Below are positions 4,338-35,415 of a stretch of DNA of 38,622 bases, piece after piece; the first letter of the stretch is position 1, and each line of letters begins with the position of its first letter. The notes beneath the pieces are model-generated. The model saw only the letters and a list, made by a program, of their open reading frames with translations. It did no database searches and was not told the DNA's origin. The stretch lies in the NCBI GenBank assembly GCA_964187785.1, contig OZ076411.1:25321379-25360000 (forward strand), in the 5' to 3' direction. Both the position numbers and the translations under genes were made by a program. This DNA comes from Amphiscolops sp. MND2022. Lineage: Eukaryota.

Positions 4338-9785
<5,448 letters not shown>

Positions 9786-11985: not shown

Positions 11986-12001
11986 TATAGTTGAAAAATA
12001 C

Positions 12002-12262
12002 AAAGATCCTATTATTCTGTCTGTGGGTGAAAAAGATGAAATCTCAATCGCGGACGCTGTGCAATACATCTGCAAAGCTCTGGATTATCCATTCGACCAA
12101 TTAGAGTTTGACACGTCAATGGCGGATGGGCAGTTCAAGAAAACCGTATCCAATGAACGCCTTCTGAAATTTCTGCCTGACTTCAACTTCACCTCATTCG
12201 ATGTCGCAATCAAAGAAACATGCGATTGGTTCGTTGAAAATTTTGAATCGTGTAGAAAATGA
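12002..12262 (+). pseudogene. Duplicated 3' part of GFUS exon 4 (KDPIILSVG...CRK*)
   Basis: Identical to 9525-9785; lacks the first ~83 codons of the exon. Confidence 0.9.
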
Positions 12263-13509: not shown

Positions 13510-14462
13510 CAGTACTCTGATTAAGAAATCGCCCCCCTATGCGCAGAGCGTCGTTATCAATCAATTAGAATTGCGTATTTGCTCTCACTTTCAATTCTGA
13601 TTGGCGCATCAAGTGAAATCTCCGGCGCAGAAAGAACACTTCTATTTTCCCAGTTTTGGGCAGGTTTTTGAAATATTTTTCTGAAACTTAAATTTATCGA
13701 ATTTTGCAGTTTGTATTGAATTCAATGATATATTTGTTGTTTCAAAAACATTCTAAATGAAAAAATAAGTTTGTCGCCGCGAAACGTTCATTTCCTATCT
13801 TAATACATGTAAATCGAAGAAATTTTACCTTTCGAGCATGCTATTTCAAAAACGGTTGATAATTTTTGAAATCGAAAAATATCCATAGATTCAGTAGATT
13901 TGTGCGAGTTATTTGAGCATAAAACTTGCCAAAAAACATGTGGGTAACCCAGTCAAAAATTGGAAAAACGGAAAAAAGTCCCAAATTTGCTCAAAATTAG
14001 CTATATGTAACTTTCTCAATTTTTGTCCCAGAAAAATTGAAAAACACTAATATAAACTAGATAAAATTCTAAGAAACTTTTATTTTTGATGTTTTTGCAC
14101 ATAACGAAGTCAATGTGAATTGCAGTCCAGCTAAGTAAGTCTTTTTTTCCACTATAGTCAACTTCATAATGAGCGCCTTTTAGAAAAAAAACCAAAACCC
14201 CAGAGAGATTCGAACCTGCAGCCTCCCGATTGCACGGCATAAGTGTTGACCACTGTGCCATAGGGACGTTATTGAACAAAGTTGAACTATTGAATATATA
14301 CGCATGCGATTAAAATAATATATATACGCATATTAAAATAATCGATGTCTTCGTCATGTGTTGCGAAGCACCGCTTCGCCTCTGTGTTCGAAATTCTCAA
14401 CTGATTTCAAGCAAATCGAGCCTAAAATTGCCCCTGGGGACGTTTTCTTAATCACAGTACTG
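13510..14462. mobile_element. MITE copy 2 (part of the tandem duplication)
   Basis: Same sequence as 11033-11985 at +2477. Confidence 0.85.
14195..14267 (-). pseudogene. tRNA-like unit, copy 2
   Basis: Duplicate of 11718-11790. Confidence 0.65.
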
Positions 14463-17225
14463 TATAGTTGAAAAATACAAAAGTTTCAGACTCGAACTAC
14501 AGAGTCATCATAAAGCTAAACTCATGATTCCAAGTATTTCGCTGAATAGTCAAAAACTTACTCAGAAACCGTGCTACGAAACCAGTTTTGGTTTCCCTAG
14601 TTTCTTGAGTAGAATATTGTTTGTCTAGAACAAGAACTCCCTGATTACCTTGGTGGAAACTTTCGTGCTGTCGTGATTCTGCTTCGCTGATTCAAGTTTC
14701 GAAAAATGTCCATGCAAACTGATAAATTCAAGGTTATATTGCACCTGAATAAAAAAATTGAAACCTAAACAGTTTTTTTTTCGTTTTGAGTGGAGCGTCT
14801 TTCATTTCTACTCCCTCTTTCATCTGTTCCAAGAGCAATGACTTCAGCCACAGTAATATTCAGCGCAATGAGATCAATATTCTGAGATTATAAATTAAAT
14901 CTTTTTGTTCCAATTATAGTCGAACCCCAAATCAATGCATTTGTTACAATTTCTTAGAACACTGGGCAATTGAAGCAACTAGTTAGTAGCTTGATGTGCG
15001 CAATTCAGGAAATTTTTCCCAGAAAGGTTTTGACTAGCAAAATGTAGAAGTTCAATATCGAAGGTTCTTTATCTCAATTTTTCCGCGATGTGATGAGCAC
15101 GAAGTAAACTGTAAACGTTTTGCCTGAAACACTTTTCAACAGATCTGAAGATCATGTATCATACTCAAAATTTGATATGATACAGTAATTTCTAGTGCTG
15201 TCAAAAATGAAACGTCGAAAAACGTTTGAAAAAAACCACGTGAACTTGTTGGTGGCCCAGAAATCTGAGTCACGAGTTGATGTACCAATCAGAATGAAAA
15301 CGACATCAAAAGATTGCACGTCAAAAGAATCAGCGAAATACTACGCTGAAAAGAACGGAAACAACAAGAACACCGATAGCTACCAAATATTGGTCATTAA
15401 AACCCTACCTGCGAAACAAATGTCACAAATCAAAAAAGTCCAACTCGGCTAAAACTTGGGAAATTTTTTTCTCTTTCCAGAAATGTCTCATAGTGACGAA
15501 AAACCCAAAAGGAGGCCTCCAAGTTTGCAACACGTTCTTAAGTCAAAATCAGAATTTTAGCTTTTTTTCTAGTACCGCCGCTTCGTGGCAATTCCGCTCT
15601 TTGCGGGGGCTTTTAGTATCAACAACAGCAAATTGTTTCGTTTTGGAGCACAGCGTCTTGCAGTGTGGAAGAGTCTGGGGCGAAAGTAGTCAGAAGGCGA
15701 AAAAAAGTAGGGTACCTTAAAGTACCGCTTGGTTTTCCAGGGTCACGAAGTTGAACAAAACAAATCGAACAAACAAATTGCACAAAAACCTTTGAGACCT
15801 TGTTAGTCGGCACCTTATGAAGTGAAACGCGACTATTATAGTGACTTTTTTTTCAATTCACACCAACTGACCAAAATAGTTCTACAGAGTTCTACGAAAT
15901 TTTATGGTGACAATTGAACCATTTGGACTGGCGAACTGAACCAAAAAGGGTTTTCTGTTTTTCCGCGTAACATACAATACCGGGAGAGACTAAAGCGTCC
16001 CCTTTCAGTTTTTTTGGCATTGTGATACTTTGCTAAAAAATCCAAAAGGGTCCCCCCTTTTACCGCGCCGGCGCTAAATTCGGTTCAATTCTTGGGTTTT
16101 TCGGGTACTGTAAAAGAATACCTATCACTTTGAAGACCTTTAGCTATTTTTGAGCCTTATATATGGTTCCCGGGTTGTTTTCTTTCATTTCTTCTTTGTG
16201 GATCTTTCGAAAATTGGAGGGGTAAGTCAGATGATGATTTCTTACAATGATTCTATTATAGACTAATACTAATAAATAATGTTGTTTTGGAAAATGGGCC
16301 AGTGTCAACATTCAACTGGTTCGAGTCCGGAGTTTTTGTTTGCGGTAGATTTTACTTTTTAACTCTTTTTTCGACAGCATATAATTCCGAAAACTTTCTC
16401 CACATAGAAACTTACCGAAGACTCAAAGTTAATATTGATCAAGCTGCTGGAAAATTTTAAACGTTTCGCGCTGTGGAAAATGAATAATTCTGAGACGAGA
16501 TATTGCATGCAATTGTTTTTCAAACCGTGAGCTAATCAATTATTTTTTTGTTACACGGTATCGCGCGCAATATATTTTTTTTACAAAACTGAAGCTCTGC
16601 AGAAGAGAACACAGATGATTTTGTTGCAAAATGAAGAAGCAATCATTGGAAAAAGTTTCCGATGTTGAAAAACTTTTGCTCGTGTATGATTTTTTCTTGG
16701 TAGAAATTTTCGAAGAGTTGTAGTGTTGAAAAAATTGTGTCTATTGATTTTCCAATTCAATCAAATGAGGCGCATGTTTCCAGATTGCTCGCGAGATAGC
16801 AAATGAGGGACATATTCGGGTCAAGTTGGAATAGAGCTGCTTTTAGAAAAAACGTCTGTGACTACTCGTTTATGACAAAAGAGTGAATACTACGAATCTC
16901 TATGCAGGAACAATTTGGAAAACCTCCCTTAGTTAAAACAAATGCTGCTTGATCATCAATCTCATCATAGTTCAGTGTTGAGATGGGACCTTTCTTAAGT
17001 TTTAAAGCTAGGAATTCGTTCATGGTCAACTTGGATTTCAATGGCGATGACTCGGAGAGCAGGTTTGCTCCGTTTACTTCCTGATTGGAAGGTTTTGTGG
17101 ACAGTCTTGTAGCATAGTAGCTATTCAATGATTAAATTGTCGCGTCTGGTAAATGTCACAAATAGGTTAGTGATTTTTTTTCAGCATGTTTGCACACTCT
17201 TTGGTCTGTTTTACCAGATAATAAG

Positions 17226-17922
17226 ATTCCATATGTTCTCCTTAGATGAAAGAAATTTCCTTTACATAGATAATAGCCTTGTTATCCCGCAAGCTAAGTG
17301 AGCAATGATCATGTGTTCTTCACAATTCGGACACCCAGGCGGAGATGCCATGCTAGGTATGGTATTTGACATTTGATGGCCTAAGATTCACAGGGAGCTG
17401 ACGAGAAAGTGCGGACATACTTGCAAGCAGGTGAGAATTTGAAGTGTATGTTTAAACAGAAACAAACAGGAAAAATACCTGAAGTAACAGAGATGAATGG
17501 AGAGATAGCATAGAAATGAATTTTGCAGGACCGTTTTAGACATTCTCTCAACATTCAAACTTCATTGTTTTCAATTGAGATTCCATCAATTATCCTACAA
17601 CACTAAGAGATTGCTGGAATATCTAACTTGGTTTAGGAACGCTCCAGTGCAATGAAGGACTGCTGAGCCTTATTAGAGTTTTTGAGCAACTTCGAACAGT
17701 TTGTCAGTCCTGCTCAAGATCATTCATCAAAATATAATGAAAAAATGATTGTAAAGATGAATTCACGTCTTCATAAAGTCAAAACCATTTCATCAGAAAA
17801 CATGTGCTTTTGATACTGTTATACCGAACACTGGAGATCAAAAATGCAGGTTGAGGAACTCAGAGCAAAAAATTGATAGAAACATGTATGATAACATTTA
17901 AACATAAACAAATGTTCATCAT
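17226..17922 (+). repeat. Partial unit of a ~1.41-kb tandem array (decayed Gypsy integrase HHCC fragment), interrupted by the LTR element
   Basis: Similar to about 33330-34027 and 34745-35415. Translates in pieces as SLDERNFLYIDNSLVIP...FGHPGGDAML...WPKIHRE...QAGENLK...FAGPF. Confidence 0.85.
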
Positions 17923-19698
17923 TGTCATGCCAGCATGATGGAAATATAATCTACTAAATATCTGTAATGTAAATATTATGTCTTATGTACTTAGATATGG
18001 GCAATATGATGTCATATAATAAGATCCATGGTTGTGAGCAACCCTACGTTACTTGTACTTAACCCCCTATTTTCCCCAGTGAGATTTGAGCTATTTATTT
18101 AATTAATACTGAGCATTCTAGTTCAGTTTGTCCGCAATTAGTGATTGTGCTAATAAGCAAATGATGCTATTCTACATTTAATGGCTTGTCACGAGGAAAG
18201 AAAGTAGTTTCTCGGTCAAACTGGACCGCCATGACAAATAGACGAGATTGAACACTCGCTAGGGAATTCCCGCCTCAGAGGAAACTAGCGTGGCAAGCCT
18301 CCTCTCTTTGAAATACACGAAACGATGAAATAACGATGTTATTGGTGCTAGAACTCATAATTTGACTCAATCTAACAAATTTCATCCATATTACATCGCC
18401 TAACTGTGACCAGAACGCTAGAAAACGAGAGAATTGAAACACGATGTAAAAGCGATGAAACTACTTGATTGAGGGACTTGTTACCATATGTTTCATCATT
18501 TGTACATCGCTCACGCCTCCAAAACCTGAAAACGGTGCTAAAATAGCTAACGATGGATAAACGATGGAAATCTTTCATCGTTTTCTCATCTAGAGCTGAA
18601 TCACGCTTCCAAGACCTGAAAACAGTGCTAAAATCAGGAACGATGGAAAAACGATAGAAATCTTTCATTGTTTTCTCATCTATAATCAAAATTCACCAAT
18701 AACTATGGTAAAGCGATGTAACCACTCCTGAACGATGCACAGTGCTCTCCCCACCACTCATTTCATCGTTTTCACATCTAGTTGATCGTTTCAACACTAG
18801 AACAAAGCTCATTCATCATTCCTGCATCCACAGCCACATAAACAGAATCAACTAGTAGAAACGATGCCAAAACGACAAAACTACTGAATCCCGTATCTCC
18901 AGTTAAATTAGCGCTATTGATTCATCGTTTTTACATCATACTTGTTTAAAGTTGATTTAATCGACCCCCAGCTGGATTGTACCCCATTTTGATGTGATTT
19001 CGACACTTGCCGTGACTCAGACGATGCTTACTACAAGTTACTAATTTGAATGCATTAAATATTCATAATAATTGGTTTAAATAGATTCAGCGCGCAATTT
19101 CAGCTTGGTAGCCCTCCAGCGACATGCGATACAACCGGTCTAGTGACCAAGTGCTAATTAGCACCTTGCTAACTAACCAATAAGAACGAAACGATGGTAA
19201 GAATTGAGTCTTACCATCGAACTGGTGGAAGGCTACCGGAGAGACAACACAAGATTTACTAACGCTACATTGTACAAGTACTTATATTTACTTACCCTTT
19301 ATACGTACCTTACTCGAGCTTACAACAATTCAACTCTTATCCACAACAATCATCTCTTTCTCATCGTATGAGTTCTAATTCCCAAATAACCTTGAGAAAC
19401 GGGAAAACGTTAACTGGCACTACTTCAGTAGATTCAACAGAACTTACTCACGAGGAGCAAATCGTTAACATGGAAAATGACAACGAAAATGTAGATGATC
19501 AAACCCAATCAAGACAAAATTCATCAGGTCCAGAGATAGATTCACAGAGGGCAAATGATGAAAGATTTAGCCACCTACAATCAGAAATGTCTATGCTGAA
19601 AGCTATGATGGAAAAGTTGCTAGAACAAAACGAGGAGAGAAATAGACAAACGGATACCAATGCCGCAACGTCCTCGTTCGCGGTACGGTCGTCCAACA
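17923..19698 (+). repeat. 5' LTR (1,776 bp)
   Basis: Runs TGTCATGCC...GTCCAACA and aligns end to end with 30835-32609. Contains a ~90-bp internal tandem pair (18512-18592 / 18602-18682). Confidence 0.97.
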
Positions 19699-19711
19699 TG
19701 GTGACAGGAGT
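19699..19711 (+). other. Primer-binding site TGGTGACAGGAGT (probably tRNA-Leu)
   Basis: Begins with TGG immediately after the LTR's CA. From memory it matches the tRNA-Leu-type PBS TGGTGTCAGGAGT at 12/13. Confidence 0.75.
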
Positions 19712-20841
19712 CAACAGGACTCACAGAAACCAACGCAACTATTTCCACGACGAAGAAGATGAAGAAGATTACGAAGACACACCAAGCAACTCAACAGAGA
19801 CCGCATTACTCAACGCCATCCAAGATCTACCAAGGAAATGGCAGAAAACAAACACGAAACTCCTGCAAACCCACGTTCCCAATTTCCGAGGCTCTAAAGA
19901 CAAATACAACGAATTCGAGCACCTCTTACTTAACCATTTCCGACCCATCGCCAACAAGATCACAGAGGAAGATAAAATACACTTCTTCCAGAGCTTACTC
20001 CGCGATGAAGCCATTGACTTTTGGCAATCCATCACCATCAACCCAACCACCACTCTACAGGACATCCTGCAACTATTCAGAAAAGAGTTCGCAAAAGAAG
20101 ATATGAGAGAAGTCGCCCGCTACAAATGGAATGAAGCCAAATACGACCCGACCACCCAGACATTCGGAGATTTTCTAAAAAACCTCAAGAAAATAGCCAA
20201 GCAAGCATACGGCGACGAGGCTGACCAATGCATCAAGATGTTCCTCTTCGGGAAAATACCAAGCGAAATCCAACAAGAGCTGACAATGGCGAACAAGGAA
20301 GACAGCAGCCCCGAAGAAATCAAAACCTACCTACTCAGAAAATACCAATATCAGAACGTCCTACAACAACCTGCAGCGACATATCAGCCATTTAACCAAA
20401 TGTCTGATAACAACCCCAAACGAGAATTCACACGCTCCGACCAATCTCAGCCCAAACCAGACATCAAACGGTTCGATGGATAATGCTTCTACTGTGGTAA
20501 ACAAGGCCACAGGAAACAAGAATGCAGAGGACGCCAAAGAGATGAAGCTAATGGCATTAACAAACCAGACGCCATACAACCTACCAAACGGCAAGATGAA
20601 GATAAGCCAAAATACAACCCAAAACTGGTATGCCAGATTTGCGGTATACTGGCCACTCAGCCAAGGACTGCAGAAAAAGAATCCCAAAGCAAACGAGCAC
20701 ACCCTACGGACAACTACCATATCAACGAACAGATGAACAAGAGAACAAAGAACGACGACGAGAATTAAAACAACAACAGCGCCCCATGAACCAAATGGAA
20801 ATACAAGACAACGACGAAGATCCATCCTCAGAAGGAGAACA

Positions 20842-20848
20842 GGATTTT
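20842..20848 (+). other. Candidate -1 ribosomal frameshift heptamer G_GAT_TTT (gag to pol)
   Basis: In phase with gag, one codon before the gag stop. The -1 frame is open from here into the protease ORF (ATG 21031). Confidence 0.65.
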
Positions 20849-20853
20849 CAGTA

Positions 20854-23800
20854 AAGCCACAATTTCACTCCGCGAACAATCGAAGTGCGCACCCACACTC
20901 TGACTCCAAAACTCACTCGACTCAACAAACTCAACGCAATCGTCACCAGAGGTCTTGGCAGCCCTCTGGTGATTCCAGCAAAGCAGACGAAGTCTATCTG
21001 CGAAGAAACCAGAAAACCGATGAACAACCGATGAAGTCAATGCGGACTACCAACAAATTCACCCCATTGGAAAATTCACTCGATGAGCAAACGATGAACT
21101 GGCATAACGACGCATTGAGGCCTGCGCACGATGCCAAAGAGATGTACTCACATCTACAACCGACGGACCGACTCTCAACCGATGACAAATCGACAAAACG
21201 GCTTAGTAGCAAAACAATTGCAAACGACAAAAATAGTAGTACCAAAACTAAAAAACATGCAACCAATAATCAATTTCACGTACTTAGTCCCACATTACAT
21301 TTAAATAAAAAGGATAAGATGTTGTTTGTTCCCCTCCAGTTTAACAGCTACGAAAACCAAGGTCTTTTAGACACAGGAGCAGTGCAAAGCGCACTTTCGG
21401 AAGCAGAATTACGCAAAATCACTGCTGCTCATCCCGAAGCAGTACTAGACGAATTACCACCCCCTAACTTCAAAGTTCAGATAGCTAACGGAAGCTTGGT
21501 CCCCATTCGAAAACAAGTCCTTCTACGCTTTTTCATAGCTGGAAAAGTATTTGAAGAAGTCTTTTTAGTCCTCCCAACAATGGGAACAATCCTGATTGGA
21601 ATGTCGTTCTTTGAAAAATATTCGGTCAACCTTGACATCAAAAATCATTTAATCCACTTTCCAAACCACATGATGTCAATGCAAGTGAGACAACAGACGA
21701 ATAAAAAGTTCAAAACTGGATTAATTAATTTGTATTCCAGCAGCCGAACCACCATCCCTCCCCACCATCAAGTACTGATTGAGGTCCACAGTGACGAGGA
21801 CATATCACGTACAACCGGTACGGTAGAAGGGACTCCAGCATTCATGCGCAAGACGTGTCTCTTGGTGTCTCCAGCAGTGGTTGAACTAGACGATGGCAAA
21901 ACGATGATTCAGGTCACCAACCCCAATGAGCACGTGTACACACTCGAAACCAACACCAACCTAGCAAACTTTATAATACCAACGCCCCACCAAGTTGCCA
22001 ACATCACACCGATGCCAGTCGAACACCTGAAGTTGATCACCGATCACCCCGACGATGCAGCAGCAGTGATCAATCAACTCTTTGTGAACACCGAGATGAA
22101 GTCTACAAAATGGTACCCGACACCAGAGACGTGTAGTGAGCCAGACAAACTCAACAAGATCGAACGACGCATTTTCGATGAGATTCTGGCCCTCAGAGAA
22201 CTGGAGAAGCTCGACCCTACCCACTCCCATGAAGAACGAGTCAAGTTCCTGCAGAACTTCAAGTGGGAGGAATCACTTCTCTCTCCATCTCAACAAGCTC
22301 AGGTAGAGGAGTTGCTGGTAAAGTACAACTCCATTTTTGCTAGACATCGTTTAGACATCGGCATGAACACTGATTTTAAAGTAAAATTAACACCCCAGCA
22401 TGAAGAACCGGTGTACTCCCAAAGTCTCCCTACCCCTACTAACCTAAAAGATGACTTGCTTGTAGAATTAGCGTTAATGCAGGAGTACGGGATTATAACT
22501 ATTCTTCCTTACAGCAAATACTCTTCACCGATATTTGCTCAGCGCAAACCGAATGGTAAACTAAGGATTTTAGTTGACTTGCGGAGAATCAACCACCTGA
22601 TCAAGAACGATTACGGCGAACACAACCACCCAGTCACAACCGTTTGAGACGCTGCTCAACACATGGCCGGGAAAAAATATTTCTGTAAACTTGACTGTTC
22701 CCAGGCCTACCATTGCATTCCAATGGCTGATGAGCAGTCAATCCAACTTTTGTCTTTCAACTTTGGATCCCGCACCTTTGCTTTTCTTAGACTAGCTCAA
22801 GGTCTTAACCGTTCTCTTTCAGCCTTCACCAGCGTAGTCCGCGAGTACTTGGACCCCTTGGTCAAAGCGGACCGCTGTGCCCAGTATGTTGACGACATAG
22901 GCATAGCAGCAGATACGCCTGATGAATTGATTGAAAATTTAGAACTTGTTTTTCAGCAGTTGACCAAAGCTGGTTTAAAACTCAGCATGAATAAATGTGA
23001 TTTCGGCCAACAACAAATTGAATACTTTGGAAAATCAATTTCTAGCACTGGAATAGAACCCATCGAAAAACGAATAACTGATTATTTGAAGAAACTCAAA
23101 CCGTCCAATTCAGTCAAAGCTCTCCAACGGTACTTAGGATTTGTCAACTTTTACAGGTCCTACATTCCCCGGTTGGCAGACAAAACAGCCGTTCTCCACG
23201 AGTTAATCAAAAAAGACACTACCTTTAAATGAGAACAACGTCACAAAGATGTAATTTTTGACATTAACGAAAGTTTACTCAAGGCTACTAAACTGTCATT
23301 GAAACTTCCCCTTCCGGATAAACAATTAGTAATCATGTGTGACGCGAGTGAACACGCAGCAGGTTATGTTCTTTTAATAGAAGACTACTCTGAAACACAA
23401 TCGGGTAGCTTGAAGAAGTACGCACCAGTTGCTTTTGGCTCTAAGAAATTTCAGGGTGGACAGATGTCATTAACAATGTACGCTAAAGAATTTTTAGCCA
23501 TGCACTTCGCGTTCGACGAGTTCGGTCACATTTTGTGGGGTGCAAAGAAACCTATAATTGTAATGACAGACAGTAAAGCACTCACCCGTTTCTTTCAGGC
23601 CAAACACATACCACCGTCACTTTGGAATTTTTGCGACCAGACGCTTCAGTTTAATTTTATTTTAGCAGATGTACCAGGTGTAGAGAATCCCGCAGCGGAT
23701 TACCTTTCCAGGTTGGAAATTCGACCTGAAGACCGTGTTCATCTAAAATTAACTGATTCCATTCCAGTACACCACATAGAAATTGAAATCGCCTCGAAGA

Positions 23801-26000
23801 CGCCAAAACAGGAGGAAGACGAACCAGACTACTTCCCTCCTAGCGAAACACTGAGACAGAAGAGGTCACACGATGCTAAACCGATGAAAGTGATCAACTC
23901 TGAGACAGTGACGACTGATGATGGCAAACTGATGATTTCAGTTGACGCAGCGACGGCAGACGGTGACGATGACAAGACGATGAACTACGTACATTCCACA
24001 CCACTGGCCTCTGAGAATGATCACACAAGCTCCCCTCAGATCTACCAGCTAATGCCTGACGCTCACCTACCAGAGTACACTAGATTCATCGTAAAAACAT
24101 CGTTACTACACCCGGTAACGAAAGAGGTTAGCCCCCAAGGGGGAGTCGATCTAATTTTAACCCAAAAAACAGATAGTGACATTCAACTTATGTTAAAAAT
24201 TTTGTCTGGCGAAACAACTCTAACCCACTCTGTGAACTTGATGTCAACGTTTTTCCAAAAACTCCACAAAAACCGTAAACGCCTTGAAAAAGTAAACGGA
24301 GCTCTGTACCGTATCTTTTATGACCATACTGGCCTTGAGTCCCATAAACAAATCGTCGTACCTGATCAAGTCATGCTAGAAATAATCAGGTCCTTACACA
24401 GTAACCCTGTACAGGGACACCCCGGCTCTAAAGAGATGTTACATGAACTACGCAAACGCTACTTCTCTCCAAGTCTTGCTGAAAAAACACAAAAAATACT
24501 CGAAAGCTGTGAAAATGCATGCGATCGAAATCGACGAACGAATCAAAGGTCCGTCCACCGTTACAGAAAATTTACGACCCGTGTAACGGCCCTTCTGATC
24601 TGATGGAAGTTGACATAGTCGGACCACTGCCTGCATCAAACGGATTCACACATATCCTGACCGCAATCGACGTATTCGCGCGTTATTTGTTTGCTGTACC
24701 GCTACGAAAACCCGATACACCATCCGTAGTTAAGGCTTTACTGTCGGTATTCGCCAAACACGCGTACGTCCCAACGCATATCCTGACTGACAAAGGATCC
24801 GTGTTCACCGCCGAACTATTCCAACAACTGACCAAAGCCATAGGCATTGAAATCTCCCATGCAACTGTAAAACATGCACAAACCATAGGCATGGTTGAGA
24901 GAAGTCATGCAAAACTTAAAAAGATCCTAAAAATACATGTAAATGTAGACAGACCACAATGGGACCGCTATGTCGACATAGCAAGCATGGCCCATAACAC
25001 AACGTACCACACTTCTCTGAAATGCTCACCAACTGAAATCTTTCACGGACGCACTCGATACAACGCTTTGGACCTAAAATACTCTAACCCCGAAAGACGA
25101 GTCGACACCAAGTTTGGAGACGTCAACCAGATCCTAAACCTTATGAACGAAATCTACCGAAATAACACAGACAACATAGTAGCTGCATACCACAAGTACA
25201 AAGCTTATTATGACAGAAAAGCCAAAGCACAACCGCTCAAAGTGAACGACCTTGTTTTCCTACTTGACCCCAAATACGACTCTCAGGGTTGCAAAGAAGA
25301 GTTCAAGACCTTCCACTGGAAAGGTCCGTTCAAAGTGATGAAAGTGCTGTCCGACAGTAATTACATCATACGAAAGGTAAGAACGTTCAAAACACAATGC
25401 GTTCATCGTATACGACTGAAAATCTTCAAACCGGAATTCCCTGTAGAAGACGTAGAAATCAGCAACCAACCAGTATACGCTGACACGGACCGAACGGAAG
25501 ATTCTGATATTTTCGATTCCCACATTCCCACACAAACAAACATAAACTCCAACTCGGACGAACCAGAAACTGATGAAGAAACACTAGTTGAAAGAGTCAT
25601 TCGAATCAAATCACCAGATTATCGACAGCCAATCAAACACGACAGACCACTGAACCGACTACCGAACCGACTGTCGTTAACACCACAACCGGAAATAATC
25701 ATAGACGACCTGCCTCTAAACGCCCCACAGGTGCAATTAAACGAAAATGATGATATAAGTCCACAGGAAATCATTCCAGATACAGCGAAACAAACAGAAC
25801 CATCAACAAAACCTGCCAACACCGAGACACCCCGACAGGTGAACAATGACGAAACGCCAAATCTGATAGCAACGAGGACAAATAAAAACAAATATAGTCT
25901 ACGCGAAAACCCTCAGCCGAAACGCTACTCAGACTTCCTAATTCATGAAATCTCAACTGCTCGAAACGCTCTACGCAAAACAAACACTACTTTACAGTAG
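20854..26000 (+). pseudogene. pol: pol: protease, RT, RNase H, integrase; two in-frame stops (22645-22647, 23230-23232) and one frameshift (~24515)
   Basis: PR LLDTGAVQS. RT YSSPIF, LRILVDLRRIN, QYVDDI. RH CDASEH, KEFLA, TDSKAL, ADYLSRL. INT HSNPVQGHPG...C/C, EVDIVGPL, LTDKGSVF, GMVERSH. The ORFs at 21031, 22663 and 23299 share one frame. Confidence 0.95.
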
Positions 26001-26092
26001 AAAACGACAGAAAAACATGTAAACGACAATCTCACATCAAAACGATGGTTAAATAACACCCCATCGTGAAGAAAAAGTGAAATTACCAGAAA

Positions 26093-27333
26093 CGATGTAA
26101 ATCCGATGGAACATTTCCATCGGCAGCACATCGCTTCCAGAAACACATAAAATTCAAATGAGTTTAACGATGGTTCACATCCATCGTTTTCTCATCCCAA
26201 CCTTCTCTCTGACCATGCCACAAAAACAATCTGAGTTTCCATGACCTGTCTGTTGATTATCCGTAGGCTTTGCCTCGTGTCATCTGATGAACGACCCTCA
26301 GTTGATGAAAAATTTAATTACCAACTGCTAGATGGAAATTAGACAAACTACCGCATTTGACTACAAACTTATAACAGCACGATGTAAAAGAGATGGAATT
26401 TCTCCATCCCTTCTACACCTCCCTTCTCTCTACAATTACATTCAGTCAAGAGAGAATAATCATCAATCGTCAACAGACCATAGGCCTTGCCTTGGGTTGA
26501 CATTCGGTTCATTACCGCCCTGATTGAGGACACCGAAAAGATACAACTGCTATTCATTGGCTAACGCACCCACAGACACACGCCGATGAAAAAACGATGG
26601 AAATCTTCCATCGTTAGTTCATCGCTTCCACTCCCCAACGCAAAATTAACTAGTTATCAGGCGACGATGGAAAACGATGAAAATGTTTCATCGTTATCGC
26701 ATCGTCTCACAGTTCGTCGAGCAACCTTAACAAGCTCATCGACACGATGATAAAACGATGGAAAACCTCCATCGTTTCACACAACTCTTGAAGAACGCAC
26801 GAAAACCAACCCTGATGGAAAACCGATGAAAATCTTCCATCGGGTAATCATCGCTTTTAGAATTTCCACCTCAAATGAACCAACTCTTAGCCAACGATGA
26901 TGGAATGATGGATATACTCCACCGTTCCACTCACCTTTTATATCTCAACGCCAAAACCCACTTAAGCCTCTGTATCGATGCCTACACGATGAAAATACTT
27001 CATCGCGTGCACATCGCTTTGAAAGGTTAACATGAAACTCAGACTATTCATGCAATTCAAAGGTACATGTAATTTCACGCACGCGAGTACAACAACAGTC
27101 ACGATGTATAACAGATGGAGTTTCCCCATCACTTAATCACTGGTAACAACCTAACATGAAAACTACCTAAGTCTCGTAACCTACACTTCGAATACATGCA
27201 ACTGAGCCCCGCGATGGGAAAACGATGAGAATGTTTTATCGTTTACTCATCATCCAAAGGATTCATACTAATTTACACACAAACGCAATTACAGATGAAG
27301 TAACGATGGAAATTTTCCACCGCCCTCTCATCT
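26093..27333. repeat. Array of about 12 copies of a 41-bp motif CGATG-N6-CGATG-N9-CATCG-N6-CATCG
   Basis: Exact copies at 26093, 26584 and 26976. Near or partial copies at 26168, 26380, 26665, 26745, 26813, 26895, 27102, 27212 and 27293. Confidence 0.9.
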
Positions 27334-27564
27334 CCCTAATCAGCCTGCCTACCAATTAACTCCCACCTTATGGCACACGAAAACTCTAACTAAATGTTCA
27401 ATTCAGAAAATCTCTAATAACCTTAGCACAAAGTACAAAAATAAAAGAACAACAATTATAGCAAAATCCCAACACAAATGTTAGTGCTTCGCACTTTCTA
27501 ATAATACTGTTAAAACTCAATCAAAGTTAAAACAACGAAGAAACAAGTGTGAAATAAATATTTT

Positions 27565-30500
27565 TCAAAATCGATGCTCTCCGCCAATTTCCGGACTCGC
27601 AGGCCTTCCTCCATCCGACGTGAAACCTAACAGCTCCAAAACTGCACCACGATAACCATCAGGAGACTCTCTGCCGATTTCATCCCACAAACTGCCTAGC
27701 GTGACGTCTCGCAAATCTTCCGATCTTCCAATCACTTCGCTACTTTCCATCACTAAGCCATCGGGGATACTCTGTAAACCCCGCACATTTCGGGCCTCAC
27801 ACCAACTGAGGATTGTCAGGAAAATACTTCTAAGGGACTCTGAAGATAAAACTGGCAAGCAAATATTGACCATCTGAACATTTTGGATTACACTGCCGCT
27901 CAAACACAACGACAACTGCATCATTCGCCGCAAATTAGCATCGTTAGTTCCATACTGCAACAGCTCCCTATCATGGACATCTGATGCATACTCACTCGGT
28001 TGGTCATCTCGGAATTGTCTGACGAAGCGTACATAAGATTCAGACATCGCAATTCTTTCTTCTCCAGCTATAACACTATTTCCCTCTAGAGCTTCAAGAA
28101 AGTAGCCAATTGTTTCCTCTATTTCATTGATACTTCCGCACATCAGCACAACCGGACACCAACATGCTAGGGCCATATTGACTTGATCAGAAATCTGTGG
28201 CATCCGTAGCAAGTTCATAGCAACGGTGATCAGGAACTGCCGCTCGATACTCCCCCCCACAAGCATATCGGGCACGATGAGCTTCGAAAGTCCGATACAA
28301 CTGTGACTCTCTCGCTGCACTTAACCGTAGATCTCCGATTTGAAAATTGGCCCAGCGGTGCAACTCAAATGATTCCGGAACTGTCGCAGGTTGAGCAACC
28401 ATCAAGCAAAGTTCTCGGACGGTACTCAGCAACTCATTGACAGCATACAATCCGCGATGCATACTTCCACCGAAAGTCTGCTTCATGTTCTTGAGTACTA
28501 AAACAACAGGATTAAAACACAACACGCCAATGACCAGATGCTAATCCGATGTACACTGTATAACAACGCCCTCACCTAGTACAGACCTAACAAATCACTC
28601 GAAATAGTAGTTCCACGCCACATGACATTTTTCCGATGATAACTATAGACAGTTCTCCCAACCCTCATACAACGCGACGGAAAACCGACAAAACCTGTAT
28701 AAACGTAATTACATGTAACAAAAGCAAAAATCTAACCAATGGAGTATACCGCTCCCATAGCATGCAATTTCAAAGCTAGTCCTGATTCCTGCAAGATTAT
28801 TAATTCCATCCGATTGGGATCTGCACTTCCTCCTAACTGATCAAGACGCTGTACCAACGCCAGAATACTGTCCCACGACTGATGTAACTCCTCCAGGACA
28901 GAGACAATCTCCCAATTAGAGATTTCACCGGTTACGACACACTGAAATAAAACACATTACTTACACACCTCACGTCAAATTCCAAGATGACCACTACGTG
29001 TTCTTAACTCCAAAACTCTTGCCGAACTGAAACCAAATATATGAACACACTAACATGCAACAAGGCAGGACAACTGCGTAACACAGGATCAGTCAAACAG
29101 TCGCGAAGCTTCCCCAGAAGAAAGTTCATCACCACATGAACGTCCTGCCCGACGAACACAGACAATCCAGCGGTTGTAATAATCTGCAATACGGCATGCA
29201 ATTGTAACGGATTCAGCTGCAACCCGCGTCGGCCGCCGTCTCCTTCTAACAACCCTCCAACAGATGAGAGACATCCACAACTGATCCCCAATGGGACAAA
29301 GTCATCAACCACACAACTCCAGTAGTCCGCGAGCCACTCAGACACTCGCCTCTCCCAGTCGCCAGTAGCTACGACCTCAAACAGGACCACACCCTGCACT
29401 GCGTCTGCCTCAGCCACACTGACAGAGCAACGAACGACACTCCTATCCAACTCCAGATATAGTCCAACAGGATTTTCACCACATAGCGAAGCTGCGAGTG
29501 TACGGACGACATAAGGCCACACTCCGAAGATCAAAAGCGCCTGGAAAAAGTTAAAAAAAAATATTCCAAAACACCAATCAGCCTCACGACAATAGCACAC
29601 AAAACTCCCCTCAGAACCTAGATCATTTACCCGTCTATAGACACAGCATGAAGGTTATTAGGAAATTCCAAACATGTAATAACATGTATACATGTAAGTC
29701 ATGAAACATATAATTACCACTACGTCTTCCTTTCGGCATCCACCACCGAAAAGACTTCTGTACGACACGTCCGTCGTCGACAAGGAATCCCACAAATTGG
29801 TGAGTCCCGTCACGTCACCACCTCGATAAAGCGCGTCCACGACGACACACAGGAACATCCTCAGACTGCGTTCTGTATCAGGCACTTCCTGCACGGTCGA
29901 ACTCCAGATACTGCCGCCTCCTGACTCAATCCGGAACACATCCGGCACTGACAAGGCAGGACACACTTCCACGTCAGGCACTGACAGCCCACGTAACTCT
30001 TCAACCATTCGCGCCGCTTCTAACACGCCCATCACGGCACCAGTAGGACGTCTTAGCAACATTCCACGTCGCAGACGCACCAGACAGTCTAACCTGTGAT
30101 GGATCACGCCGCGACAATGTTCCAGATAGGTCGAAATCCCGCGACTGCCACCTTCAAATCGCGACGACACAAGAGACATCGCACATAAGCATCAGATGAG
30201 CGATGCTCACGAGCGAAGCCAAGCGAGATTCCGGCATACGGGTGTTGAAACCAAGTCGCGCGAATGCTGTTTAAAGCGACTAAAACGAAATCCGATGGAT
30301 AAACGATGAAACTACTTAACTGCAAATAGAACTGAATGGAATTCATTCATAATAACCCCCCTGATGTAAAAACGAAGTTTTAGTTAAATTAGCTAAGAGA
30401 AAACTTCTACCGACTGAAAAAAAAATCAAAACTACTGAAAAGAAAGTATCGAGAAAACGATATCAAATCACACTTGAAAATAAAAATACCCACGCCCACT

Positions 30501-30834
30501 ACGTATTCCGAAAAAGCACATAACTTGCAAGACAGTGAATCACGTGATCGATGAAGTTGTTTAGTTTACCTGCCCGAACTGACTGCCTGACAACAACTGG
30601 ACCAGGTTGTGCAGATGAACTGACGATGGAAGTACCAGCCTCACCCACAACGGCAACATTTCCAGATGACTCGGCAACGTCTTCATCATCAAGGATCATC
30701 GCATCTGCCTTCGCCGCTCATCCTCAGGGACTGCCTCAATGTCCTCTGACTCCCTGGAAGGCGACTCCACCACGAACTCACGACGCGTCTGTGTTGCTAC
30801 ATCACGTGACGACTCCGACGCTTCCGGTCCACAG
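27565..30834 (-). pseudogene. Antisense multi-exon accessory gene: acidic N-terminal region, C2H2 (BED/TTF-like) finger, putative inactive hAT-transposase-like fold; frameshifted and 5'-truncated by the 3' LTR
   Basis: Consecutive minus-strand ORFs with in-phase GT-AG introns: 30569-30280, 29717-29541 (phase 0, KEDVV|ALLIF) and 28736-28695. C-x2-C-x16-H-x5-H at about 30178-30099, split by a frameshift near 30146. The hAT assignment is by-eye inference. Confidence 0.7.
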
Positions 30835-32609
30835 TGTCATGCCAGCATGATGGAAATTCAATCTACTAAATATCTGTAATGTAAATATTATGTCTTATAT
30901 ACTTAGATATGGGCAATACGATGTCATATAATAAGATCCATGGTTGTGAGCAACCCTACGTTACTTGTACTTAACCCCCTATTTTCCCCAGTGAGATTTG
31001 AGCTATTTATTTAATTAATACTGAGCATTCTAGTTCCGTTTGTCCGCAATTAGTGATTGTGCTAATAAGCAAATGATGCTATTCTACGTTTAATGGCTTG
31101 TCACGAGGAAAGAAAGTAGTTTCTCGGTCAAACTGGACCGCAATGACAAATAGACGAGATTGAACACTCGCTAGGGAATTCCCGCCTCCGAGGAAACTAG
31201 CGTGGCAAGTCTCATCTCTTTGAAATACACGAAACGATAAAATAACGATGTTATTGGTGCTAGAACTGATAATTTGACCCAATCTAACAAATTTCATCCA
31301 TGTTACATCGCCTAACTGTGACCAGAACGCTAGAAAACGAGAGAATTGAAACACGATGTAAAAGCGATGAAACTATTTGATTGAGTGCTTGTTACCATAT
31401 GTTTCATCATTTGTACATCGCTCACGCCTCCAAAACCTGAAAACGGTGCTAAAATAGCTAACGATGGATAAACGATGGAAATCTTTGATCGTTTTCTCAT
31501 CTAGAGCTGAATCACGCTTCCCAGACCTGAAAACAGTGCTAAAATCAGGAACGATGGAAAAACGATGGAAATCTTTCATCGTTTTCTCATCTATAATCAA
31601 AATTCACCAATAACGATGGTAAAGCGATGTAACCACTCCTGAACGATGCACAGTGCTCTCCCCACCACTCATTTCATCGTTTTCACATCTAGTTGATCGT
31701 TATAACACTAGAACAAAGCTCATTCATCATTCCTGCATCCACAGCCACATAAACAGAATCAACTAGTAGAAACGATGCCAAAACGACAAAACTACTGAAT
31801 CCCGTATCTCCAGTTAAATTAGCGCTATTGATTCATCGTTTTTACATCATACTTGTTTAAAGTTGATTTAATCGACCCCCAGCTGGATTGTACCCCATTT
31901 TGATGTGATTTCGACACTTGCCGTGACTCAGACGATCCTTACTACAAGTTACTAATTTGAATGCATTAAATATTCATAGTAATTGGTTTAAATAGATTCA
32001 GCGCGCAATTTCAGCTTGGTAGCCCTCCAGCGACATGCGATACAACCGGTCTAGTGACCAAGTGCTAATTAGCACCTTGCTAACTAACCAATAAGAACGA
32101 AACGATGGTAAGAATTGAGTCTTACCATCGAACTGGTGGAAGGCTACCGGAGAGACAACACAAGATTTACTAACGCTACATTGTACAAGTACTTATATTT
32201 ACTTACCCTTTATACGTACCTTACTCGAGCTTACAACAATTCAACTCTTATCCACAACAATCATCTCTTTCTCATCGTATGAGTTCTAATTCCCAAATAA
32301 CCTTGAGAAACGGGAAAACGTTAACTGGCACTACTTCAGTAGATTCAACAGAACTTACTCACGAGGAGCAAATCGTTAACATGGAAAATGACAACGAAAA
32401 TGTATATGATCAAACCCAATCAAGACAAAATTCATCAGGTCCAGAGATAGATTCACAGAGGGCAAATGATGAAAGATTTAGCCACCTACAATCAGAAATG
32501 TCTATGCTGAAAGCTATGATGGAAAAGTTGCTAGAACAAAACGAGGAGAGAAATAGACAAACGGATACCAATGCCGCAACGTCCTCGTTCGCGGTACGGT
32601 CGTCCAACA
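30835..32609 (+). repeat. 3' LTR (1,775 bp)
   Basis: Same termini as the 5' LTR, followed directly by the TSD ATCAT. Confidence 0.97.
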
Positions 32610-32623
32610 ATCATATCCCATAA
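32279..32623 (+). CDS. LTR-encoded Gag N-terminus (110 codons) in the 3' LTR, running 4 codons into flanking DNA
   Basis: Identical to gag residues 1-110 except D43Y. Ends at TAA 32621-32623 in host sequence. Confidence 0.6.
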   Translation: MSSNSQITLRNGKTLTGTTSVDSTELTHEEQIVNMENDNENVYDQTQSRQNSSGPEIDSQRANDERFSHLQSEMSMLKAMMEKLLEQNEERNRQTDTNAATSSFAVRSSNNHIP

Positions 32624-35415
32624 AAAAACTTTCTGTCAGCACTGAGACTTTTTCGAGAGGAATCTATCTGAAAATTTTTTTCTCTTTTTGTTTTGTTAAG
32701 TGAGATAGGCGTTTGATAGTGATATATCCGCTTCTATATATCTAAGCAAATATAGTGAGATCATAGACAAAAACATTATTTAATTTGTGATAACCTCTCT
32801 ATGGATAACTTGTCCTGTGGTATTGAAATTTGGGTGCAAGCAACTTTGTTGAAACAGTTCAAACTGAGCAGCAAACTGATAAAATTATTGTAGCACTCAA
32901 AGCTACTTGAAAAGCCAACACAGAACAAAAAATCCACAATTTGCATAACAAACTATCCAAATTGATGCGGAGTTTTCACGGGAAAACTACAGGTTGATGT
33001 GGAAGCTGCCGGTTTTGTTTGAATGATGTTTTAAATGGCAGCGCGAAAGCAAGTGAAAGAATCAAGGCGGCAGAAATGATTGATGAGAATAGGAGCGTCA
33101 ATCGAGTGAACGAAGCAAAAAAGAAGCGACCAGCCAGATCGCTAGAACAACGAAATCAGACGAAACCAAACAGGATTAGTCTTAATAGCACCAAATTGAA
33201 AGTGAAATGAGTCAGAGGCTCTCAATTCCCGTAATAAATTACGCGGCAAATACTATCATCCGAAAAATCATCATTTTAGTGAAAAATATAACAGAACCAC
33301 GAAAAGCCGGTTTTCTATTTGAAAAATTCCATGTTATCCTTAGATGAAAGAAATTTACTTTACATAGATAATCGCCTTGTTATCCCGCAAACTAAGTGAG
33401 TAATGATCATGTGTTTGCAATTCTGACACCCATGCGGGGTTGCCATGCTAAGTATGGTATTTGACATTTGGTGGCATAAGATTCATCAGGAGCTGACACA
33501 TCCGACGAGAATGTGCGGACAATGCTTTCAAGCAGGTGAGAATTTGAAATGTATTTTTAAACAGAAACAAACAAGAAAATTACGGAAAGAATAGAGATGA
33601 ATGAGGTGTTAGCATAGAAATAAATTTTTCAGGACCGGTTCAGACATTCTTTCAACATTCAATCTGCATTGTTTTCAACTGAGATTCCATCAGTTATACT
33701 ACAACACTAAGAGATTGCTGGAATATCTAACTTGGTTTAGGAACGCTCTAGTGAAATGAAAGACTTCTGAGCCTTATTACAGTTTTTGAGCAACTTCAAA
33801 CAGTTCGTCAGTCCTGCTCGAGAACATTCATCAAAATATAATGAAAAAATGATTGTAAAGATGAATTCACGTCTTCATAAAGTCAAAACCATTTCCATCA
33901 GAAAACATGTGCTTTTGATGCTGTTATACCGAACACTGGAGATCAGAAATGCAGGTTGAGGAACTCAGAGCAAAAAATTGATAGAAACATGTATGATAAC
34001 ATTTAAACATAAACAAATGTTCATCATATCCCATAAAAAAGCTTTCTGTCAGCACTGAGACTTTTTCGAGAGGAATCTATTTGAAAACTTTTTTCTCTTT
34101 TTTTTTGTTAAGTGAGATAGGCGTTTGATAGTGATATATCCGCTTCTATATATCTAAGCAAATATAGTGAGATCATAGACAAAAACATTATTTAATTTGT
34201 GATAACCTCTCTATGGATAACTTGTCCTGTGGTATTGAAATTTGGGTGCAAGCAACTTTGTTGAAACAGTTCAAACTGAGCAGCAAACTGATAAAATTAT
34301 TGTAGCACTCAAAGCTACTTGAGAAGCCAACACAGAACAAAAAATCCATAATTTGCATAACAAACAATCCAAATTGATGCGGAGTTTTCACGGGAAAACT
34401 ACAGGTTGATGTGAAAGCTGCCGGTTATGTTTAAATGATGTTTTAAATGGCAGCGCGAAAGCAAGTGAAAGAATCAAGGTGGCAGAATTGATTGATGAGA
34501 ATAGGAGCGTCAATCGAATGAACGAAGCGAAAAAGAAGGGACCAACCAGATCGCTAGAACAACGAAATCAAACGAAACCAAACAGGATTAGTCTTAATAG
34601 CACCAAATTGAAAGTGAAATGAGTCAGAGGCTCTCAATTCCCGTAATAAATTACGCGGCAAATACGATCATCCAAAAAATCATCATTTTAGTGAAAAAAT
34701 ATAACAAAATCACGAAAAGCCGGTTTTCCATTTGAAAAATTCCATGTTATCCTTAGCTGAAAGAAATTTACTTTACATAGATAATCGCCTTGTTATCCCG
34801 CAAACTAAGTGAGTAACGATCATGTGTTTGCAATTCTGACACCCAGGCGGTGTTGTCATGCTAAGTATGGTATTTGACATTTGGTGGCATAAGATTCACC
34901 AGGAGCTGACACATTCGACGAGAATGTGCGGACAATGCTTTCAAGCAGGTGAGAATTTGAAATGTATTTTTAAACAGAAACAAACAAGAAATTTACCGAA
35001 AGAACAGAGATGAATGAAGAGTTAGCATAGAAATAAATTTTGCAGGACCGTTTCAGACTTTCTTTCAACATTCAAACTTCATTGTTTTCAACTGAGATTC
35101 CATCAGTTATACTACAACACTGAGAGATTGCTGGAATATCTAACTTGGTTTAGGAACGCTCCAGTGAAATGAAGGACTGCTGAGCCTTATTACCGTTTTT
35201 GAGCAACTTCAAACAACTCGTCAGTCCTGCTCAAGAACATTTATCAAAAAAAGTGAGAAAATGGTTGTAAAGATGAATTCACGTCTTCATAAAGTCAAAA
35301 CCATTTCCATCAGAAAACATGTGCTTTTGATGCTGTTATACCGAACACTGGAGATCAGAAATGCAGGTTGAGGAACTCAGAGCAAAAAATTGATAGAAAC
35401 ATGTATGATAACATT
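32610..35415 (+). repeat. Two units of a ~1,413-bp tandem repeat (32610-34022 and 34023-35415), derived partly from decayed Gypsy RNase H/integrase sequence
   Basis: atcatatcccataaaa recurs at 32610 and 34023. The units are highly similar but not identical. Remnants HK(K)A-LSALR and YIDNRLVIP...WWHKIHQE...QAGENLK. Confidence 0.9.

What the first reader, a model, noticed from the sequence alone, without database searches (positions are those of the whole stretch)
18323..30308. Possible self-encoded protein/operator system: the same CGATG-N6-CGATG sites occur in the LTR, in pol linkers and in an intron of the antisense gene
Seen: full or half sites in the LTR (18323, 18442, 18494, full at 18551-18591 and 18641-18681, 18764, 18923), inside coding linkers of pol (21018, 21081, 23871, 23967) and in the antisense-gene intron (30293). 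Lone half-sites argue for DNA-level direct-repeat recognition. Known: hAT BED domains bind short subterminal repeats; Arabidopsis VANDAL elements encode VANC anti-silencing proteins that bind short motif arrays in their own non-coding DNA; transposase-derived CENP-B homologues bind S. pombe Tf LTRs. Inference: the antisense Zn-finger protein binds these CpG-containing sites to regulate, protect from silencing, or target its own element. I know of no such system described for animal Gypsy elements.
Basis: inference. Interest (0 to 1): 0.85.

Follow-up and report, generated by a model that had tools for sequence, protein, structure and literature searches.

The report
Retrotransposons carrying a captured transposase regulator
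A large group of retrovirus-like jumping genes in this animal carries, backwards, a gene whose protein is predicted to fold like a cut-and-paste transposase without its cutting residues, and each family's version of its zinc finger goes with a different short DNA repeat in the element, so these elements likely make their own sequence-specific regulator.

Summary
The Gypsy element (17923-32609) holds 21 exact CGATG-N6-CGATG dyads against 0.025 expected. The antisense gene is a real, conserved gene (finger dN/dS 0.03-0.07), though broken in this copy. A relative's protein is predicted to fold like Hermes hAT transposase, with a BED-like finger and no conserved catalytic acids. Related Gypsy families here carry the same gene. 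Families with other finger helices lack the GATG dyads and carry their own: GGCCT-12, GGGAC-12, GGAC-N5-GTCC, TGAC-N5-GTCA, GACT-N9-AGTC. One family shows no clear motif. So site and finger change together. Binding, expression and function are untested. Protection from CpG methylation is unlikely: CpG o/e is about 1 and no DNMT1/3 was found. Best reading: a self-encoded, family-specific regulator of the LTR, like plant VANC or TnpA. Ten literature searches found no such system. The scan earlier noted antisense zinc-cluster genes in fungal Gypsy elements, on other DNA.

The parts
17918..17922 (.). 5-bp target-site duplication, left copy (right copy 32610-32614)
   Evidence: element inserted into a 1413-bp tandem unit
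17923..19698 (+). 5' LTR, 1776 bp, TG...CA; its last third overlaps the start of the gag frame
   Evidence: 98.5% identical to the 3' LTR
18323..18940 (.). LTR site cluster: 3 exact dyads and about 6 one-mismatch dyads on both strands, upstream of gag
19699..19712 (+). Primer-binding site (tRNA-Leu-like by recall), inside the gag frame
   Evidence: sequence; tRNA identity recalled, not tested
19263..20768 (+). gag with zinc knuckle, interrupted by a stop in this copy
20737..26000 (+). pol (protease, RT, RNase H, integrase); two stops and one frameshift in this copy
21018..21096 (+). Two dyads in the linker before the protease, read as D-x-x-P/T-M
21891..22360 (.). Two further coding dyads between protease and RT (21891 +, 22345 -); the second lies in the conserved RHRLDIG peptide
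23871..24102 (.). Three dyads in the RNase H-integrase linker (23871, 23967 +; 24087 -)
26043..27336 (.). Main array between pol and the antisense gene: 10 exact dyads, mostly in 41-bp palindromic full sites (four-half-site cores at 26094, 26585, 26814, 26977)
27565..28498 (-). Antisense gene, last exon: helical insertion domain and C-terminal part of a hAT-like core; frameshift near 28240 in this copy
28753..28941 (-). Antisense gene, exon 4 (predicted)
29043..29540 (-). Antisense gene, exon 3 (predicted): start of the RNase H-like core
   Evidence: placed by homology to family D
29721..30267 (-). Antisense gene, finger exon: C-x2-C...H-x5-H BED-like finger and following helical domain; frameshift near 30140 in this copy
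30293..30308 (+). Dyad in the predicted intron upstream of the finger exon
30568..30834 (-). Acidic N-terminal exon, cut off by a deletion of about 1.56 kb that also removed the purine tract before the 3' LTR; frameshift near 30711
30835..32609 (+). 3' LTR with the same site cluster (4 exact dyads)

Best explanation
This Gypsy clade carries an antisense gene under purifying selection whose protein is predicted to be a catalytically dead hAT transposase, and its BED-like zinc finger likely binds the fixed-spacing short repeats of its own family and likely controls transcription from the LTR. Shown: the sites, their spacing, their retention in pol by codon choice, the gene's conservation, and that site sequence differs between families whose finger helix differs. 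Predicted: the Hermes-like fold and the loss of the catalytic acids. Inferred: that a dimer or larger oligomer reads two half-sites at once (11-bp direct dyads, 9-bp inverted pairs), as Hermes BED domains read short subterminal repeats cooperatively; that the acidic, Ser/Pro/Thr-rich N-terminus acts as an effector; and that the net effect is to switch on or keep open the element's own promoter, family by family, by a route other than CpG demethylation. I put binding to the own-family sites at about 0.8 and transcriptional control, given binding, at about 0.7.
For: Sites: 21 dyads vs 0.025; 1479 vs 0 genome-wide; 9 of 10 sites checked away from known gene copies lay in LTRs of this or related families, 1 unmatched. 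Coding sites: 3-9 GATG dyads per pol frame in 6 of 6 A and 4-8 in 6 of 6 B elements, against 0.2-0.8 after synonymous-codon shuffles; 0-1 in 16 of 16 D and E elements. Gene: dN/dS 0.03-0.07 for the finger, 0.07-0.23 for other exons in pairs where dS is measurable and large. Fold: family D protein, Foldseek ranks 1-10 all Hermes, probability 1.00, E 0.0016-0.025; VIA Z 12.0, 401 aligned, rmsd 4.9, next Z 6.8; last-exon model of families A-C also ranks Hermes first, Z 7.2, 217 aligned, rmsd 7.4. Finger: the only PDB hit of the finger profile is the ZBED2 BED domain, E 0.044; Atlas neighbours are hAT-derived. Covariation: GATG-11 dyads 13-72 per locus in 50 of 50 A/B/C loci and 0-5 in 23 of 24 D/E/G loci; GGCCT-12 in 6 of 6 D1; GGGAC-12 in 4 of 4 D2; GGAC-N5-GTCC 6-7 per element in 3 of 3 E1 scanned; TGAC-N5-GTCA 8 in the one E2; GACT-N9-AGTC 4-6 in 4 of 4 G1/G3. 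The top dyad beat the top dyad of 100 shuffles in all of them for A, B, D1 (direct), G1, G3, E2 and all but 2 for D2. D2, E1 and E2 share a Glu in the helix and a GAC core; D1, sister to D2, has Gly and GGCC. In every family with a motif the sites cluster in the LTR.
Against: No binding, RNA or chromatin data. Kin share both finger and LTR, so only about five or six switches are independent, and I ran no formal test; family G was not in the RT tree. Family G2 (4 loci) keeps an intact-looking finger but shows no significant dyad. In E1 the LTR-only test was significant in 1 of 3 LTRs (0, 8, 15 of 100). Family C has a different helix residue yet keeps GATG. L227 (G3) has 12 GATG-11 matches, from a 31-bp tandem repeat. 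L133, fetched for a decayed gene fragment, has 1 dyad and no readable finger. Site load is very unequal (about 40 per element in A/B, 2-3 in D), and sites deep in pol are not what a simple promoter activator needs. Sequence methods do not link the protein to hAT: Pfam blank, profile comparison with genuine hAT frames probability 0.1; Foldseek E-values were above 0.001. Catalytic positions were placed by secondary structure, not by a residue-level superposition.
Confidence: 0.56

Rival explanations
1. The protein binds its own sites, but on the cDNA or the integrated copy as a structural coat: it bridges the LTRs, guards the cDNA from self-integration, helps nuclear entry, or steers integration.
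For: The whole transposase scaffold is kept, not only the finger. Sites are spread through pol and the post-pol spacer in A and B. hAT oligomers bridge DNA ends (PMC10368747, passages).
Against: Sites lie 400 bp or more inside the window LTR's ends, away from where integrase acts. D families have only 2-3 dyads, all in the LTR. The long acidic N-terminus and basic stretch resemble a transcription factor (inference).
Confidence: 0.2
2. The arrays are sites for host transcription factors; each family tapped a different factor, and the finger differences only mirror family divergence.
For: LTRs commonly carry host factor sites (PMC13547354, passage). Covariation rests on few independent switches. 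G2 and C do not fit a simple code.
Against: A and G1/G3 share the 9-bp inverted spacing and E1 and E2 share the 5-bp one while the half-site changes, which suits one protein family changing specificity. The finger stays nearly fixed within a site class while the rest of the protein falls to 25-50% identity. 9 of 10 sites checked away from gene copies were LTRs, not host DNA.
Confidence: 0.14
3. The sites are leftovers of the subterminal repeats of the captured hAT element, or RNA hairpins, and the protein has a job unrelated to them.
For: The arrays flank the gene on both sides, as subterminal repeats flank a transposase. Outer spacers of 93 distinct full sites pair somewhat more than shuffled partners (0.52 vs 0.41; sites not independent).
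Against: Leftovers would not be written into pol by codon choice or be replaced family by family. Most dyads are lone direct repeats on either strand, and family B has about 50 dyads but only 1-4 of the 9-bp palindromes. None of 22 hAT loci examined had a GATG dyad.
Confidence: 0.07
4. The protein shields CpG-containing sites from DNA methylation, as VANC and TnpA do in plants.
For: Family A prefers C before GATG (0.66-0.79 in 23 of 24 loci); D2 and G1 sites also hold CpG. Same layout as VANDAL arrays (PMC5735166, passages).
Against: CpG o/e near 1 in element and left flank. PF00145 gave 5 matches, read as DNMT2-like or bacterial-looking. B has C in only 0.29-0.41 and C-family 0.03-0.25 of half-sites. 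The DNMT1-RFD search was blank but uninformative.
Confidence: 0.03

Closest known systems
VANDAL/VANC of Arabidopsis (PMC5735166, passages seen)
   Same: An element-encoded accessory protein, family-specific short motifs in arrays in the element's own non-coding DNA and introns, protein and motifs changing together.
   Different: VANDAL is a DNA transposon; VANC probably derives from host MAIN (PMC13547354, passage) and acts on DNA methylation. Here the carrier is an LTR retrotransposon, the protein has a hAT fold, sites also sit in coding DNA, and binding is not shown.
Spm TnpA and dead transposases as regulators (bioRxiv 10.64898/2026.08.24.746577; abstract, outline and passages seen)
   Same: A transposase that lost catalysis and serves as a sequence-specific regulator of cognate copies.
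   Different: Those cases stay in DNA transposons or become host genes; the word 'retrotransposon' does not occur in that main text. Here a class II protein serves a class I element.
Hermes hAT transposase and its BED-bound subterminal repeats (PMC10368747, passages seen)
   Same: Predicted fold; BED-like finger; 4-bp core followed by A-rich bases; paired sites.
   Different: No conserved catalytic acids or TRW motif, no terminal inverted repeats around the gene, and the sites lie inside an LTR element with fixed spacing.
Retand/Grande antisense ORFs with TRP28 domain (PMC11963269, PMC7264820; passages seen)
   Same: Gypsy elements with a conserved antisense gene between pol and the 3' LTR, next to family-specific repeat arrays; DNA binding and regulation proposed.
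   Different: Plant only; origin of those ORFs stated as unknown; tandem repeats rather than fixed-spacing dyads; no protein/site pairing shown in the passages read. No Pfam match to TRP28 here.
brtn of Boty-like fungal Gypsy elements (Zhao et al. 2011; seen only as a reference-list entry)
   Same: An extra antisense gene in a Gypsy element.
   Different: Described in earlier scan notes as a small zinc-cluster-type protein (unchecked); unrelated fold.
Foamy virus Tas and S. pombe CENP-B homologues on Tf LTRs (both recalled, not read)
   Same: Tas: a retroelement's own DNA-binding activator of its LTR. CENP-B: a transposase-derived protein on LTRs.
   Different: Tas is not transposase-derived; the CENP-B proteins are host genes and repress.

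Membership tests
Ty3/Gypsy LTR retrotransposon | TG...CA LTRs, target-site duplication, PBS | tested here: met
   1776-bp LTRs, 5-bp duplication, TGG after the 5' LTR
Ty3/Gypsy LTR retrotransposon | gag then PR-RT-RH-IN order | tested here: met
Ty3/Gypsy LTR retrotransposon | Purine tract before the 3' LTR | tested here: inconclusive
   lost by deletion in the window copy; relatives have only a short G-rich tract
hAT transposase (as origin of the antisense protein) | RNase H-like core with helical insertion domain, Hermes fold | tested here: met
   on a family D model; on a last-exon model of families A-C; D linked to A by the finger alignment and weak tblastn
hAT transposase (as origin of the antisense protein) | N-terminal BED zinc finger | tested here: inconclusive
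   C-x2-C...H-x5-H invariant in 14 of 14; ZBED2 E 0.044; zf-BED weak in 3 of 14, below cut-off
Active hAT transposase | Conserved DDE triad and TRW motif | tested here: not met
   no conserved Asp/Glu at the strand ends or last helix in 32 family D rows (positions placed by secondary structure); no TRW-like motif in any of the 196 stored proteins
hAT transposon (nested insertion) | Terminal inverted repeats and 8-bp duplication around the gene | tested here: not met
   no such inverted repeat of 25 bp or more found; the gene sits in the same place in families whose RT is 58-97% identical
VANC/TnpA-type self-regulator | Family-specific motif arrays in the element's own DNA that change with the protein | tested here: met
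   one family (G2) without a clear motif
VANC/TnpA-type self-regulator | Direct binding of the protein to the motif | not testable with these tools
   needs EMSA, SELEX or ChIP
VANC/TnpA-type self-regulator | Loss of DNA methylation and activation in trans | not testable with these tools
   indirect signs point away from methylation
VANC or Retand TRP28 protein family | Homology to VANC/MAIN or PF04195 | tested here: inconclusive
   no Pfam match; fold search points to Hermes

The most novel reading that the evidence does not exclude
An animal LTR-retrotransposon clade of thousands of copies captured a hAT transposase once, dropped its catalysis, and turned it into a self-encoded master regulator whose BED finger and operator have co-diversified into at least six protein/site pairs. 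That makes a natural recognition code, and lets each family address only its own copies.
Probability: 0.6. Interest if true: 0.9.

Novelty: new variant of a known kind. Interest (0 to 1): 0.83.

Why it matters
Self-encoded, sequence-specific regulators that co-evolve with their sites are known from plant DNA transposons. An LTR retrotransposon that took such a regulator from a DNA transposon would join the two classes in one element. It offers a testable origin and role for antisense accessory genes of Gypsy elements, which a review calls unknown (PMC7264820). It may help explain how this clade spread (17,712 first-look RT candidates; not a copy number). The family series is also a ready natural panel for how BED fingers read DNA, which has been worked out for few proteins.

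Tried and rejected
RNA: no RNA holder listed, so no reads were laid; no evidence either way. Pfam on the antisense exons and proteins was blank. The PDB sequence search with the last-exon profile gave only chance-level hits, and Foldseek on the last-exon model gave nothing. Profile comparison with 9 genuine hAT frames of this genome failed, and no catalytically intact donor turned up among 157 hits, 120 listed, all unnamed. A single-exon query found no longer homologues. The DNMT1-RFD search was blank and its control did not ring. I looked for a related family without the gene as a control and found none: D, E and G all carry it; one unrelated Gypsy (RT 28%, 7.4 kb) had 0 dyads. Rejected: a nested hAT insertion; a protein-level D-x-x-T/P-M motif as the cause of the coding sites (codons are fixed to the DNA motif in 40 of 42 listed A/B peptides at all ten positions); a tandem duplication in place of LTRs. 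One regex run printed nothing and was rerun. Ten paper searches found no Gypsy element with a hAT-derived gene; the library lacks most subscription papers and Repbase Reports, and I read no supplements. No complex prediction was run.
Full report
Element. The window holds one Gypsy retrotransposon at 17923-32609. It has 1776-bp LTRs (98.5% identical), a 5-bp target duplication and a PBS at 19699, and gag plus PR-RT-RH-IN. The copy is dead: stops in gag and pol, frameshifts in pol and in the antisense gene, and a deletion of about 1.56 kb just before the 3' LTR. My recall that the pol motifs resemble acoel flatworm elements was not tested.

Observation. All 12 coordinates hold the motif, 8 exactly and 4 with one mismatch. 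The element with one LTR has 21 exact dyads against 0.025 expected; the flanks have none. The period is 11 bp, about one helical turn. Full sites are two dyads facing each other across 9 bp. The three-half-site pattern occurs 1479 times in the genome and its reversed control 0 times. Of 10 sites picked from the first 100 listed because they lay away from known gene copies, 6 were LTRs of family A, 3 shared the LTR start of related families, and 1 had no match.

DNA-level sites. In 12 of 12 A and B elements with a long pol frame, GATG dyads number 3-9 against 0.2-0.8 after synonymous-codon shuffles; in 16 of 16 D and E elements they number 0-1. The spacer residues vary while the motif stays. 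Most dyads are lone direct repeats on either strand. Family B has about 50 dyads per element but only 1-4 of the 9-bp palindromes. Outer spacers of full sites pair slightly above chance (0.52 vs 0.41), so a hairpin role for some sites is not excluded.

The antisense gene. It has at least five predicted exons with candidate GT/AG borders; no RNA was available. It is under purifying selection: dN/dS 0.03-0.07 in the finger and 0.07-0.23 elsewhere in diverged pairs. Pfam is blank. Family D encodes the core in one frame; its model (pLDDT 74.9) matches Hermes transposase at Foldseek ranks 1-10 (E 0.0016-0.025) and at VIA Z 12.0 over 401 residues, next Z 6.8. A last-exon model from families A-C also ranks Hermes first of 48,161 chains, at a middling Z of 7.2. 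The finger has four invariant ligands in 14 of 14 rows and weak BED matches; the Atlas neighbours are hAT-derived. No Asp or Glu is conserved where the catalytic residues should lie (placed by secondary structure and by my recall of Hermes numbering). The N-terminus is acidic and rich in Ser, Pro and Thr.

Finger and site change together. I examined 75 loci of about 20 kb, the window included. They were chosen by gene or RT matches, not at random. A (24 loci; helix GISTY/FLEH) and B (23; GITTFxEH) have 39-72 GATG-11 dyads, except rearranged L057 with 14. C (3) has 13-20. A prefers C before the core and forms palindromes; B and C do so little. Sister families with RT 58-72% identical also carry the gene but have 0-5 GATG dyads in 23 of 24 loci. 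D1 (GP/ARGIWRH) has GGCCT at 12 bp in 6 of 6. D2 (GEP/LEIWRH) has GGGAC at 12 bp in 4 of 4. E1 (GAREIV/TRH) has GGAC-N5-GTCC, 6-7 per element in the 3 scanned. E2 (GVKEILSH, one locus) has TGAC-N5-GTCA 8 times. G1 and G3 (GLQ/HNLWxH) have GACT-N9-AGTC 4-6 times in 4 of 4. These motifs were found in the same loci, so I compared each region's best dyad with the best dyad of 100 shuffles: 0 of 100 reached it for A, B, D1 (direct), G1, G3 and E2, 2 of 100 for D2, and 0, 8 and 15 for three E1 LTRs (the G regions were set after I had viewed them). G2 (GL/ISSLWxH, 4 loci) gave nothing significant; a weak GTGG-N9-CCAC is a lead only. L133 could not be assigned. D1 and D2 are sisters (98/95) and join E (96/90) in the RT tree (G not included). 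D2, E1 and E2 share a helix Glu and a GAC core, while D1 has Gly and GGCC. The number of independent switches is small and untested.

Cassette swapping. Elements with nearly identical pol can carry very different versions of the gene: L047 and L055 are 99% alike in pol and 65% in the antisense gene; L071 and L105 are 96% alike in pol with the gene barely alignable as DNA. The finger and the site class stay the same in these pairs. Why old versions of the protein body persist is unexplained.

Mechanism. Hermes BED domains bind 4-bp subterminal repeats followed by AT-rich DNA, cooperatively at paired sites (PMC10368747, passages). The sites here have that form. I infer that the protein binds its own family's dyads as a dimer or oligomer, and most likely acts on LTR transcription, since every family with a motif clusters it in the LTR upstream of gag. 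A structural role on the cDNA is the main rival, and host factors the next. Protection from CpG methylation is unlikely: CpG o/e is near 1 and only DNMT2-like or bacterial-looking methylases were found, though the DNMT1 search was uninformative.

Comparison and novelty. It works like VANC (PMC5735166, passages) and TnpA (bioRxiv 10.64898/2026.08.24.746577, abstract and passages), and is laid out like Retand (PMC11963269, PMC7264820, passages), but shows no homology to them. Ten searches found no Gypsy element with a hAT-derived gene; coverage of the library is partial and no supplements were read. Earlier scan notes describe antisense zinc-cluster genes in fungal Gypsy elements, a parallel on other DNA; none exist for this genome. 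Verdict: real feature, new variant of a known kind, interest 0.83, binding still to be shown.

Noticed in passing
L047/L055, L071/L105 (loci pairs): Elements 96-99% alike in pol carry antisense-gene versions only 65% alike or not alignable as DNA: the gene behaves as a swappable cassette with many old versions.
   Followed up: partly
window 19263-19712; also families B, D, E, G: The gag frame starts inside the LTR and runs through the PBS, so each 3' LTR and solo LTR carries a short gag start.
   Followed up: partly
before the 3' LTR in L031, L047, L055, L105, L181, L185, L207: No long purine tract; a short G-rich end, in A and B preceded by a C run.
   Followed up: no
L071 oriented 17450-18900; L173/L175/L185 oriented 13570-14190: Extra frames between the antisense gene and the 3' LTR: more upstream exons in family B, and a sense frame of about 170-230 aa in D1/D2 ending at the LTR.
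   Followed up: no
window 17223-17922, 32610-35415: The element is inserted into a 1413-bp tandem repeat.
   Followed up: no
window 9525-14481: Perfect 2477-bp tandem duplication (100% over 2480 bp), overlapping an epimerase-like exon; recent duplication or assembly artefact.
   Followed up: no
window 1953-3326 (+): 457-aa open frame with a MULE transposase domain.
   Followed up: no
window 8533-9785 (+): Two exons of an NAD-dependent epimerase/dehydratase gene.
   Followed up: no
window 19192-19219: Perfect 11-bp inverted repeat with CGATG arms and a 6-bp gap, a different spacing from the other sites, upstream of gag in both LTRs.
   Followed up: no
G000 C1674 and C265 (L195): Methylase matches on small contigs look bacterial rather than animal; possible contaminant or transferred DNA.
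   Followed up: no
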